DNA of 30,154 bases from Candidatus Nanosynbacteraceae bacterium (GCA_041855665.1 JBHAEP010000015.1:1-30154), one strand, 5' to 3'. Positions 20,986 to 23,900 are shown, counted from the stretch's first letter. Notes: generated from the sequence alone by a model not told the origin. Translations and numbers: made by a program.

Positions 20986-23900
20986 ATGGCTGGAATATCT
21001 CCAAATAGTGCTGGAATTGCTGATTTTGACGCAGTGCGTCTTGCTGTAGCTAGCTCAGAAGACATTTTGAAATGGAGCTATGGCGAAGTTACAAAGCCAG
21101 AAACTATTAACTATCGAACCCAAAAGCCAGAGCGTGATGGTCTTTTCTGTGAGCGGATTTTTGGTCCAGTAAAAGATATTAATCCGCACGACAGTAAACT
21201 TAAGGGTGTTCGTTCTCGCGAAGCTGCTGTTGATAAAAACGGTGAACTTGTCACTAAGTCTATTGTTCGCCGCGAGCGAATGGGTCATATAGCCTTGGCT
21301 GCTCCAGTTGCACATATTTGGTTTATGCGTGGAACTCCAAGTGCCATGAGTCTACTTCTAGGTATTACTGTTAAAAATCTAGAAAAGATTGCTTATTTTG
21401 CAACTTATGTGATCTTAGAGAGCGATGAAGAGAAGCGCGACCAGATGCTTGCTGATCTTGAAGCTGAAACTGAAGCAGCTCGCCTGGCAATCAAGTTCCG
21501 CTATGAGAAAGAGGCTGAGAAGGAAGGTGCAGATGTTAAAGCTCTGGCCGAACAGCAATCTAAAGAGGTTGAGGATCTTAATGAATCTTATTACACAAAG
21601 AAGACTCAACTTGATAGCTTAAATAAGCACGCTTTGATTTCTGAAACTGACTACCGCAATCTACCTGAAGAATACGAGGAATTAATCAAGGTTGGAATGG
21701 GTGGAACAGCCCTAAAGGCTTTGCTTGATGAGATCGATCTACCTAAATTAATTACTGAGCTAACCGAAGAAGCTGAAGAAGCTAAGGGTCAGCGTGAAAA
21801 GAAGATCTTGAAGCGACTAAAGGTTCTAGAGGGGATGCAGTCTGCTGGAATTGATCCAAGTAGTCTTTGTTTGACTGTTTTACCGGTTATTCCTCCAGAT
21901 CTTCGTCCGATGGTGCAGTTGACTGGTGGTCGATTTGCAACATCAGACTTAAACGATCTTTATCGTCGAGTAATCAACCGAAACAATCGTCTAAAGAAGC
22001 TTGTTGATTTAAATGCTCCAGAAGTAATTCGTCGCAATGAAATGCGTATGCTTCAAGAGGCGGTTGATGCGTTGATCGATAACAGCGCAGCTCGCGGTCG
22101 ATCTAGCTCAGCTAGTGGTCGACGTAAGTTGAAGTCAATTTCAGATATGCTAAAGGGTAAGCAAGGTCGCTTCCGTCAGAACTTGCTCGGTAAGCGTGTT
22201 GACTACTCTGGTCGTTCTGTGATTGTTATTGGACCTAATTTAAAGATTCACGAATGTGGTATCCCTAAGCAGATGGCGCTTGAGCTATTTAAGCCATTTG
22301 TGATCAGCTGGTTGATTCGCAACGAACATGCGCACAATATCCGTTCAGCAACTCGTTTAATCGAAGCCGGTGAAGCTGCCGTTTGGGATGCTCTTGATGA
22401 GGTGATTGAAGGTAAATATGTTCTTTTGAACCGCGCTCCATCTCTACACCGTTTGTCTATTCAGGCTTTCCAGCCAAGGCTAGTAGAAGGAAAGGCGATT
22501 CATCTACATCCGCTTGTGGCCAGCGGTTTCAATGCCGATTACGATGGCGACCAGATGGCTGTACACTTGCCGCTATCTGATGATGCGCAGCGTGAAGCTC
22601 GCGAACTAATGAGTGCTTCAGCAAACCTTCTGAAGCCAGCCGATGGTGTGCCGGTTCTTTCGATCAGTCAGGACGTGGTTCTTGGAAACTACTATCTAAC
22701 TTATGAAAAACCAGCTGCACAAACTAAAGAACGCAAACCGTTCAGTAGTGTTTACGAAGCAGAGATGGCCTATGATAACGGCAAAATCATGCTTCAGACT
22801 CCAATCCGAGTTTTCGCTAAAGGTGAAATCCGTGATACGACACTTGGGCGTGTGTTGTTTAATGAAATTCTTCCAAAGGAATTCCCATTCGATAATTCAG
22901 TTCAAAATAAGAAGCAACTAAAGAAGGTTTTGGCGCAAGTATTTGATAAATATGGTCCAAAAGTTACCGCTGAAATTGCCGACCGAATGAAAGATCTTTC
23001 ATTCAAGTATGCAACAATTTCTGCAACTTCAACCAGTAAAGATGACTACCTTTACTATCCAGAAATTAGCGAATTTATTGCTGAAGGTAATGCTAAAGCG
23101 GCGCTTGTTTCTGAACACTATGATGAAGGTTTGATCACCGAAGAAGAGCGATACAACCTAACGGTTTCTACTTGGATGAACATCGACAATAAGATTAGCG
23201 ATTTCTTGAAAGATAAGCTTCAAGAAATGGATACGAGTATCTCTATGATGATCAACTCTGGTGCGCGTGCCGATGTCTCAAACTTGAAGTTGGCTAGTGC
23301 GATGATTGGTATTCAGGTGGATGCAAGTAACCGCGAAATTGAGTTACCTATTCAAAGCTCATTCAAAGACGGTCTTTCATCACTAGAATCTTTCGTGGCT
23401 ACCCGTGGTGCACGTAAGGGTCTAATCGATACCGCGCTAAAGACTGCCGACTCAGGTTATTTGACTCGTCGTCTCGTTGATGTGAGTCAGGATGTGTTTA
23501 CGGTTGAAGATTCCGAAGGTGATGACGAAGGATTCACTGTATATCGATCTGAGACTGAAGAGACTATGATTGATTTTGGTAATCGTCTATATGGACGCTA
23601 CACCGCAGAGGAAGTTCCTGGTCACATTGGCAAAGACGAGTTGATTACTCGAGATATCGCTGATGCTATAGAAGCAGACTCTAGTGTAACTGAAGTTAAG
23701 ATTCAATCTGTACTTTCTACAAATAACCTAAATGGAATTCCACGCAAGAGCTACGGAATCGACATGGCCACTGGTCATCTCGTCGATAACGCGCAGCCAG
23801 TTGGTGTGATTGCCGCTCAATCAGTTGGTGAGCCGGGAACTCAGCTAACTCTACGAACATTCCACAACTCCGGTGTTGCTGGTGGAGATATCACTCAGGG

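What the first reader, a model, noticed from the sequence alone, without database searches (positions are those of the whole stretch)
23490..23770. Second beta' zinc site is also cysteine-free
Seen: TVEDSEG for TEDDCGT, and [18 protein letters not shown] for RSVVSCDTDFGVCAHCYG. Knowledge: C814/888/895/898 form the structural Zn site needed for beta' folding in E. coli. Inference: together with the N-terminal site, this RNAP may need no zinc, perhaps as zinc sparing or oxidation resistance in a host-dependent cell.
Basis: partly seen in the sequence, partly recalled or inferred. Interest (0 to 1): 0.65.

Follow-up and report, generated by a model that had tools for sequence, protein, structure and literature searches.

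The report
Zinc-ligand-free RNA polymerase beta' in Saccharimonadales
The largest RNA polymerase subunit of this Saccharibacteria (TM7) bacterium really lacks all cysteines of its second zinc site, and of the first, a change that arose once in its order together with zinc-free versions of three ribosomal proteins, so the lineage probably runs transcription and translation with very little structural zinc.

Summary
Confirmed. The window holds rpoB-rpoC-rpsL-rpsG of a Saccharimonadales (TM7) genome. In beta' (20986-24798) the site-2 ligands (E. coli C814/C888/C895/C898) are E844/T912/P919/S922. The ZBD ligands (C70/72/85/88) are P67/D69/V82/N85. The alignment is anchored by invariant flanks.

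All 113 other Saccharimonadales rpoC loci examined lack both Cys4 sites. All 31 genomes from other orders of the same class and 55 from other Patescibacteria classes keep both. On the rpoC tree this is one change on one stem branch.

In 13 compared genomes, L31, L36 and S14 switch from the Cys (C+) form to the Cys-free (C-) form on that same branch. L28 and L33 had switched earlier. The loss is ligand-specific: non-ligand Cys in RpoC is unchanged, and DnaJ, UvrA, PriA, RadA, NrdR and TGT keep their CxxC motifs.

The former ZBD is strongly conserved; site 2 is relaxed but is predicted to keep its fold. Four unnamed beta' proteins elsewhere lack site 2 yet keep the ZBD, so site-2 loss is not unique; the double loss is.

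Zinc-freeness itself is inferred, not measured. Earlier agents of this scan reported the same on at least 8 other Saccharibacteria genomes. No paper was found.

The parts
20986..24798 (+). rpoC, RNA polymerase beta' (1270 aa; only 3 Cys, none of them a zinc ligand)
   Evidence: Single copy in the 624-kb genome.
23500..23520 (+). Site-2 loop 1, TVEDSEG. E844 (23515-23517) replaces E. coli C814.
   Evidence: The loop is variable, with indels, within the order (entropy at the 92nd percentile).
23704..23757 (+). Site-2 loop 2, [19 protein letters not shown]912, P919 and S922 replace C888, C895 and C898.
   Evidence: S922 is one of only 8 signature columns separating Zn-free from Cys-bearing beta'.
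23521..23703 (+). Subdomain between the site-2 ligands (residues 846-906). Its length is retained and it is predicted to be folded.
   Evidence: The span between the C814 and C888 positions averages 68 residues in Zn-free sequences and 72 in Cys-bearing ones. AF2 pLDDT is 73-92, with the same secondary-structure pattern as the Cys-bearing control.
21172..21252 (+). Former N-terminal zinc-binding domain, [28 protein letters not shown]67, D69, V82 and N85 replace C70, C72, C85 and C88.
   Evidence: It is strongly conserved in the order (entropy at the 13th percentile; pN 0.09 against 0.19 for the whole protein). Six of the 8 signature columns lie here.
21862..21864 (+). S293, a lineage-specific replacement of a Trp conserved in 94% of Cys-bearing beta'. 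It may be a compensatory change.
   Evidence: The structural link to the zinc sites is inferred, not tested.
17633..20983 (+). rpoB (beta, 1116 aa, 1 Cys), directly upstream of rpoC
25044..25940 (+). rpsL (25044-25457) and rpsG (25461-25940), downstream of rpoC. There is no small Zn-ribbon ORF in the rpoC-rpsL gap.

Best explanation
This is the working, single-copy beta' subunit of a Saccharimonadales (TM7) bacterium. Both canonical structural Zn(Cys)4 sites have been replaced by non-ligand residues, so the core enzyme most likely folds and works without structural zinc at either site.

Shown: all eight ligands are gone. The state is fixed in the whole order and arose once. The gene is intact and under purifying selection. 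The same stem branch also replaced the Zn-ribbon forms of ribosomal proteins L31, L36 and S14 by Cys-free forms. About a quarter of the CxnC motifs shared with the sister clade were lost, while non-ligand cysteines in RpoC were not.

Inferred: the change is part of a stepwise cut in the zinc (cysteine-thiolate) demand of the cell's most abundant machines, the ribosome and RNAP, not a general loss of zinc use. The former ZBD survives as a tightly conserved, metal-free basic element. It keeps K71 and K84, which are the DNA-contacting E. coli K74 and K87, and is probably held by polar contacts or salt bridges (D69, R76, R78, E79, D83). The site-2 subdomain keeps its length and predicted fold through ordinary packing, with relaxed loops.
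For: Ligand replacement and register.

Distribution: 80 of 80 loci. 22 of 22 same-order loci against 7 of 7 Cys4x2. 40 of 40 and 10 of 10 other Patescibacteria families with Cys4x2. 11 of 11 same-order Zn-free against 29 of 29 other orders of the same class with Cys4x2.

Single origin: the Zn-free rows form one clade (SH-aLRT 100, one change), sister to a Cys4x2 clade. The divergent representatives P0004-P0006 nest inside that clade.

Functionality: single copy, all Rpb1 domains, NADYDGDQM active site. pN 0.19 against pS 0.76 for the whole protein; ZBD pN 0.09.

Ligand specificity: non-ligand Cys averages 4.6 in Zn-free and 5.1 in Cys-bearing sequences. Only 8 signature columns exist, and 7 of them lie in the two sites.

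Coupled ribosomal switch: L31 and L36 are C- in 6 of 6 Saccharimonadales and C+ in 7 of 7 others. S14 is C- in 5 of 5 Saccharimonadales and C+ in 3 of 3 sister genomes.

Directional motif loss: 19 G248 CxnC motifs are lost in G000, against 3 the other way.

Site-2 fold: pLDDT 73-92, and secondary structure identical to the Cys-bearing control.

K74 and K87 contact DNA in E. coli (bioRxiv 10.1101/2020.01.02.893370). K71 and K84 are nearly invariant here.
Against: - No metal content or structure is available, so zinc-freeness rests on absent ligands only.
- AF2 gave pLDDT below 50 for the ZBD in both the Zn-free protein and the Cys-bearing control, so nothing is shown about the fold of the remodelled ZBD.
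- The AF2 alignment mixes both states, which favours the canonical fold at site 2.
- Zinc economy as the driver is weakened by retained Cys-zinc motifs in DnaJ, UvrA, PriA, RadA, NrdR, TGT and one PilB paralog.
- A ZnuA-type importer was found in only one of the 13 genomes, an other-order one, and in none of the Saccharimonadales or sister genomes, so it does not discriminate.
- Whole-proteome Cys is only slightly lower than in the sister: 0.53% against 0.62%.
- Synonymous sites are saturated, so pN/pS is only a rough guide.
- The 80 and 33 Saccharimonadales loci may overlap, because both sets come from GTDB species representatives.
Confidence: 0.7

Rival explanations
1. The remodelled ZBD still binds a metal (Zn, or Fe, Mn or Mg) through His, Asp, Asn or Glu side chains (H68, D69, D83, N85 or E85). 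Only the ligand chemistry changed. Site 2 is truly empty.
For: H68 (88%) and D69 (97%) are new, well-conserved residues next to the old ligand positions. D83 is invariant. Position 85 is N, E or D in most sequences.
Against: H68 is Y, N or F in several members and D69 is E or S in a few. Position 85 is also K, S or Q. P67 and V82 cannot ligate a metal. D83 is equally conserved in Cys-bearing proteins, so it is not a new ligand. No four-ligand set is conserved.
Confidence: 0.1
2. The driver is protection from oxidants, not zinc supply. Zinc-thiolate sites in abundant proteins are oxidation-sensitive, and removing them hardened RNAP and the ribosome in a lineage that moved to oxic or host-associated niches.
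For: The loss hits cysteine ligands in the most abundant complexes. The Saccharimonadales loci come from animal- and human-associated as well as environmental samples, going by record titles. No specific zinc importer differs between the clade and its sister.
Against: Non-ligand Cys in RpoC is not reduced. The oxidant-sensitive DnaJ zinc fingers and other CxxC proteins are kept. Oxygen exposure and the oxidative-defence genes of the two clades were not examined.
Confidence: 0.25
3. The loss is non-adaptive. In a small-population, reduced-genome epibiont, zinc sites decayed by drift once compensating contacts made them dispensable. The co-occurrence with C- ribosomal proteins reflects one long stem branch with many changes.
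For: The stem branch is long (0.18 substitutions per site). Site-2 loops are among the most variable parts of the protein. Site 2 has been lost alone in other lineages. Zinc-site loss in the class is gradual: L28, L33 and L32 went earlier.
Against: Only 8 of 1270 columns are lineage signatures and 7 of them sit in the zinc sites, so change is concentrated there and not spread out. The ZBD replacement residues are then held under strong constraint. CxnC loss is strongly directional, 19 against 3.
Confidence: 0.2
4. It is an artefact: a shifted alignment, a pseudogene, a sequencing or assembly error, or a second functional rpoC elsewhere.
For: The genome is a fragmented MAG: 73 contigs, 82% complete.
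Against: The ZBD alignment has no gaps and invariant anchors. The 1270-codon frame is intact with the catalytic motif. The same state occurs in 113 other assemblies, including single-contig genomes. There is one rpoC match in the genome.
Confidence: 0.01

Closest known systems
Canonical bacterial RNA polymerase beta' (E. coli RpoC; Thermus, Mycobacterium, Bacillus and Clostridioides beta' in the PDB)
   Same: Same domain order (Rpb1 domains 1-5), the NADxDGD catalytic loop and the rpoB-rpoC-rpsL-rpsG operon. The top-listed solved beta' chains match at 970-1140 bits (E 0 to 5e-290). The ZBD segment and the site-2 subdomain are present at the same places with the same lengths.
   Different: All eight zinc ligands (C70/72/85/88 and C814/888/895/898) are replaced by P/D/V/N and E/T/P/S. 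The ZBD carries a lineage-specific motif, PHD...S...V...E. By established knowledge (Markov et al. 1999 Genes Dev; King et al. 2004 JMB, cited from memory), site 2 is needed for E. coli beta' assembly and the ZBD for termination and antitermination.
C+/C- (zinc-ribbon versus zinc-independent) ribosomal protein pairs: L31, L33, L36, S14 (Makarova et al. 2001, from memory; PMC9825181 and PMC5912738, titles and abstracts only, as listed)
   Same: A structural Zn(Cys)4 site in an abundant core protein is replaced by a metal-free version. In this lineage the RpoC change coincides with C+ to C- switches of L31, L36 and S14.
   Different: In the known cases a C- paralog usually sits beside the C+ gene and is induced by Zur under zinc starvation. 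Here there is one gene only, so the state is constitutive. The protein is RNA polymerase, for which I found no described C- form.
beta' proteins lacking only site 2 (unnamed metagenomic lineages P0054, P0061, P0070, P0081)
   Same: The site-2 Cys are replaced, for example 'EDDDNDR' and 'MSPITHLRRNSISARAYG' in P0061, which sits in a normal rpoB-rpoC-rpsL-rpsG-fusA operon.
   Different: They keep the ZBD Cys4. They lie outside Patescibacteria on the rpoC tree. Their organisms are unknown.

Membership tests
Bacterial RNA polymerase beta' (RpoC) | Rpb1 domains 1-5 in order, full length | tested here: met
   PF04997, PF00623, PF04983, PF05000 and PF04998 all score above their cut-offs. The best match to solved beta' chains has E = 0.
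Bacterial RNA polymerase beta' (RpoC) | Catalytic NADFDGD-type Mg-binding loop | tested here: met
   [13 protein letters not shown] at residues 515-527. N516, A517, D518, D520, G521, D522 and Q523 are invariant in 54 sequences.
Bacterial RNA polymerase beta' (RpoC) | Encoded directly after rpoB, single copy | tested here: met
   rpoB ends at 20983 and rpoC starts at 20986. There is one match in the genome.
Bacterial RNA polymerase beta' (RpoC) | N-terminal Zn(Cys)4 zinc-binding domain (E. coli C70/72/85/88) | tested here: not met
   P67/D69/V82/N85. This is a typical, not an obligatory, family feature; the protein is still RpoC.
Bacterial RNA polymerase beta' (RpoC) | Second Zn(Cys)4 site (E. 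coli C814/888/895/898) | tested here: not met
   E844/T912/P919/S922.
Zinc-independent (C-) counterparts of zinc-ribbon proteins | Ligand Cys replaced while the protein and its segment are retained under selection | tested here: met
Zinc-independent (C-) counterparts of zinc-ribbon proteins | A C+ paralog coexists and the C- copy is Zur-regulated | tested here: not met
   There is one rpoC, and one L31, one L33 and one L36 in G000. No FUR-family match was found in G000, which is 82% complete.
Zinc-independent (C-) counterparts of zinc-ribbon proteins | Actual absence of bound zinc | not testable with these tools
   Needs metal analysis or a structure.

The most novel reading that the evidence does not exclude
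Saccharimonadales run a transcription-translation core that is constitutively free of structural zinc: RNAP without either beta' zinc site, plus ribosomes with only C- forms of L28, L31, L33, L36 and S14. It was acquired stepwise and completed on one branch. This would be the first natural multisubunit RNA polymerase shown to fold and work without structural zinc. It would show that the 'essential' site-2 zinc of beta' can be replaced by protein packing.
Probability: 0.6. Interest if true: 0.75.

Novelty: new variant of a known kind. Interest (0 to 1): 0.62.

Why it matters
The two beta' zinc sites are treated as near-universal, and in E. coli as required for assembly (site 2) and for termination and antitermination (ZBD). 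A whole, partly cultivable bacterial order lacking both gives three things.

First, it is a natural experiment on what the zinc ions do.

Second, it supplies a ready set of replacement residues for testing how a Zn ribbon can be made metal-free.

Third, together with the simultaneous C+ to C- switch of L31, L36 and S14, it gives a dated evolutionary step towards a low-zinc core proteome in host-dependent ultrasmall bacteria.

The finding also warns annotators and structure modellers not to assume zinc in every bacterial RNAP.

Tried and rejected
- **AF2 as a test of ZBD folding.** The ZBD scored pLDDT below 50 in the Zn-free protein, but also in the Cys-bearing control, so this says nothing about the ZBD.
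- **General Cys depletion as the cause.** Rejected for RpoC: non-ligand Cys is 4.6 against 5.1. It is weak proteome-wide: 0.53% against 0.62%.
- **Complete abandonment of zinc.** Rejected, because many CxxC proteins are kept.
- **Zinc importer or regulator differences.** ZnuA (PF01297) was found in only 1 of 13 genomes, and FUR is patchy. Neither is informative.
- **"Relic" Cys at the C814 and C888 positions in some families** (L094, L104, L099, L101, L194, L196, L200). These sit in a derived subclade, not at the base. They may be secondary Ser-to-Cys changes and not relics. Unresolved.
- **A trans-acting small Zn-ribbon ORF next to rpoC.** None lies in the rpoC-rpsL gap.
- **Literature.** Six full-text searches found no description of a Cys-free beta'.
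- **Naming the organisms of the site-2-only proteins.** Cluster look-up and contig look-up gave no names.
- **Pfam L32.** The model missed L32 in most genomes of the clade, so L32 states are incomplete.
- **S14 in G000.** Not found; the genome is 82% complete.

Full report
**Where we are.**
The window is contig C15 of a 624-kb, 73-contig, 82%-complete genome. Its closest rpoC relatives are all labelled Candidatus Saccharibacteria, Saccharimonadales or Nanosyncoccus. ORFs 17633-20983 and 20986-24798 (+) are rpoB and rpoC. rpoC carries all five Rpb1 Pfam domains and matches solved bacterial beta' chains with E = 0. rpsL (25044-25457) and rpsG (25461-25940) follow it.

**The observation.**
The HMMER alignments to solved beta' chains put 'TVEDSEG' opposite 'RETDCGT', and '[18 protein letters not shown]' opposite 'RSVLTCHSEYGVCAKCYG'. 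The four site-2 ligands (E. coli C814, C888, C895, C898, numbering from established knowledge) are therefore E844, T912, P919 and S922. Their window positions are 23515-17, 23719-21, 23740-42 and 23749-51 (verified).

The flanks [15 protein letters not shown] and YG.D are invariant or nearly so in a 54-sequence alignment, so the register is secure. The N-terminal ZBD aligns without gaps: C70, C72, C85 and C88 become P67, D69, V82 and N85. The protein has only three cysteines (55, 295, 424), and beta has one. The only correction is that E844, not S843, occupies the C814 column.

**Distribution.**
I extracted the eight columns from rpoC of many genomes.
- Saccharimonadales: 80 of 80 loci from the genome collection, 22 of 22 'same family/order' genomes and 11 of 11 further same-order families have no Cys4 at either site. 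The two sources may overlap.
- Other orders of the same class: 31 of 31 have Cys4 at both sites.
- Other Patescibacteria classes: 55 of 55 genomes, from more than 50 families including the most divergent ones, have Cys4 at both sites.

Identity to the query drops from at least 63% inside the order to at most 57% outside it. On a maximum-likelihood rpoC tree the Zn-free rows form one clade (SH-aLRT 100, one change). Its sister is a five-genome clade that keeps both sites.

A search of 1.84 billion representative proteins returned 150 diverse beta' proteins. The ZBD is Cys-free only in P0003-P0006, all of which nest inside the Saccharimonadales clade; the N-terminally truncated fragment P0060, Cys-free at site 2, probably belongs with them. 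The unpublished genome G154 entered only the tally.

**Are the sites lost together?**
In this phylum, yes. I found no genome with one site lost and the other intact. Some Saccharimonadales families carry Cys at the C814 and/or C888 columns, but never at C895 or C898. These families sit in a derived subclade, so the Cys may be secondary Ser-to-Cys changes and not relics.

Outside the phylum the answer differs. Four representatives (P0054, P0061, P0070, P0081) have an intact ZBD Cys4 but a Cys-free site 2. P0061 lies in a normal rpoB-rpoC-rpsL-rpsG-fusA operon on two independent assemblies. Its nearest tree neighbour is a Cys-bearing protein. So site 2 is the more expendable site in evolution. 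What is special to Saccharimonadales is the loss of the ZBD ligands and of both sites at once.

**Is the gene functional?**
- There is a single rpoC in the genome.
- The frame is intact and holds the catalytic NADYDGDQM motif.
- Among 81 Saccharimonadales sequences pN is 0.19 against pS 0.76. Synonymous sites are saturated, so this is only a rough guide.
- The former ZBD (63-89) is more constrained than the average: entropy at the 13th percentile, pN 0.09, and 11 of 27 columns invariant.
- The site-2 loops and the segment between them are less constrained than average: 87th-92nd percentile, pN 0.25-0.31.
- In Cys-bearing relatives the inter-ligand segment is just as variable, and it is of similar length: 72 residues against 68.

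**What changed besides the ligands?**
Only 8 of 1270 columns separate the 34 Zn-free from the 86 Cys-bearing sequences at the 85% level. They are 67, 68, 69, 77, 82 and 87 (all in the ZBD), 922 (C898 to S) and 293 (Trp to Ser). Remodelling is thus concentrated in the ZBD.

The basic residues K71, K73, R76 and K84 are nearly invariant in both groups. K71 and K84 correspond to E. coli K74 and K87, which contact spacer DNA (bioRxiv 10.1101/2020.01.02.893370). The working surface therefore seems to be kept while its metal scaffold was replaced.

**Structure prediction.**
AF2 on residues 1-1200 gave pLDDT 73-92 across 831-930. The strand and helix pattern there matches a control model of the Cys-bearing sister protein from G248. 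The ZBD scored below 50 in both models, so that part of the test is uninformative. The alignment mixed both states, which biases site 2 towards the canonical fold.

I compared 13 genomes: 6 Saccharimonadales, 3 from the sister clade and 4 from other orders.

| Protein | Saccharimonadales | Sister clade | Other orders |
|---|---|---|---|
| L31 | long C- form, 6 of 6 | C+ (Cys4), 3 of 3 | C+ (Cys4), 4 of 4 |
| L36 | C- ('SPDD...N'), 6 of 6 | C+ (Cys3His), 3 of 3 | C+ (Cys3His), 4 of 4 |
| S14 | 89-aa C- form, 5 of 5 (not found in G000) | 61-aa C+ form, 3 of 3 | C+ in G444 and G448; C- in G427 and G439 |
| L33 | C- | C- | C+ in G427 and G444; C- in G439 and G448 |
| L28 (5 genomes checked) | C-, 3 of 3 | C- (G248) | C+ (G444) |

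L32 was C+ only in G444. It was C- in the four other genomes where the Pfam model found it, and it was missed in the rest.

So zinc-ribbon forms were shed stepwise in this class. The Saccharimonadales stem branch removed five sites at once: RpoC sites 1 and 2, L31, L36 and S14.

**Genome-wide comparison with the sister genome G248.**
Across 291 reciprocal best hits, 43 of G248's CxnC motifs are kept in G000, 19 are lost and 6 are partly lost. Only 3 of G000's motifs are absent from G248. Further losers in G000 are two of three PilB-like ATPases, a class II aminoacyl-tRNA synthetase, GatB and, in part, RecR.

Many Cys-zinc motifs stay in G000: DnaJ, UvrA, PriA, RadA, NrdR, TGT, prepilin peptidase, a ComF-like protein and TrhO. 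Whole-proteome Cys is only slightly lower, 0.53% against 0.62%. Non-ligand Cys in RpoC is unchanged, 4.6 against 5.1.

The pattern is a selective removal of zinc-thiolate sites, complete in the two most abundant machines. It is neither a general cysteine loss nor a total abandonment of zinc. ZnuA and FUR searches did not discriminate.

**Interpretation.**
The best-supported reading (0.7) is a beta' with no structural zinc at either site. It arose once at the base of Saccharimonadales, as the last step of a stepwise cut in the zinc-thiolate load of ribosome and RNAP. Absence of bound metal, and the cause of the change, are inferred. Zinc economy, oxidant protection and drift with compensation all remain open and are not mutually exclusive. 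A substitute His/Asp metal site in the ZBD is unlikely (0.1), because no four-ligand set is conserved. An artefact is excluded for practical purposes.

**Novelty.**
Six full-text searches found no paper describing a Cys-free beta'. The closest described concept is the C+/C- ribosomal protein pairs. Within this scan, earlier agents reported the same phenomenon on at least eight other Saccharibacteria genomes, so it is not new to the scan.

- the order-level boundary, with a named sister clade;
- the exact coincidence with the L31, L36 and S14 switches;
- the directional, genome-wide CxnC loss;
- the ligand specificity of the loss within RpoC;
- the concentration of signature changes in the ZBD;
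- site-2-only losses in other lineages.

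Noticed in passing
P0054, P0061, P0070, P0081; L340:3001-7185 and L341:3001-7185 (P0061); L342:3001-7326 (P0081): Four beta' proteins from unnamed metagenomic lineages outside Patescibacteria keep the ZBD Cys4 but have no Cys at site 2. P0061 sits in a normal rpoB-rpoC-rpsL-rpsG-fusA operon on two assemblies. P0081's rpoC is not next to rpoB; it lies beside fragmented UvrD genes and a WhiB gene.
   Followed up: partly
G000:C40:106-339 (L31), G000:C45:3222-3335 (L36), G000:C34:8319-8456 (L33), G000:C25:5837-6007 (L28): This genome carries only Cys-free forms of L31, L36, L33 and L28. In the sister clade L31, L36 and S14 are still zinc-ribbon forms. S14 was not found in this incomplete genome.
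   Followed up: yes
G000:C18:6601-8364, G000:C59:4479-6101, G000:C68:11660-13441: There are three PilB/T2SSE-type ATPase paralogs. Two have lost the Cys4 cluster that their G248 orthologs keep, and one retains it. RecR (G000:C6:2904-3518), GatB (C48:7804-8527) and a class II aaRS (C39:2640-3742) also lost CxnC motifs relative to G248.
   Followed up: partly
window 21862-21864 (S293): A Trp conserved in 94% of Cys-bearing beta' (the 'PEWM' motif before the VIPPxLRP lid region) is Ser in 91% of Zn-free beta'. It is the only signature column outside the two zinc sites and may be a compensatory change.
   Followed up: no
window 26003-27660: A DUF520 gene (26003-26497) and a 387-aa ORF with no Pfam match (26497-27660) lie between rpsG and fusA, interrupting the usual rpsL-rpsG-fusA run.
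   Followed up: no
window 15373-17360 (minus strand): Three consecutive ORFs (156, 176 and 247 aa) with no Pfam match lie between clpP (14733-15326) and rpoB. The usual rplKAJL genes are not upstream of rpoB here.
   Followed up: no
G506:C1:928749-932509 (another order of the same class): In this genome the rpoC match is split in two. The first part contains 6 TGA, 1 TAG and 1 TAA stops. It could be a broken copy, an assembly error or a recoded gene.
   Followed up: no
L094 (G277), L104 (G087), L099, L101, L194, L196, L200, L036, L043: Some Saccharimonadales families carry Cys at the C814 and/or C888 columns of site 2, but never at C895 or C898. They cluster in a derived subclade, so relic versus secondary gain is unresolved.
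   Followed up: partly
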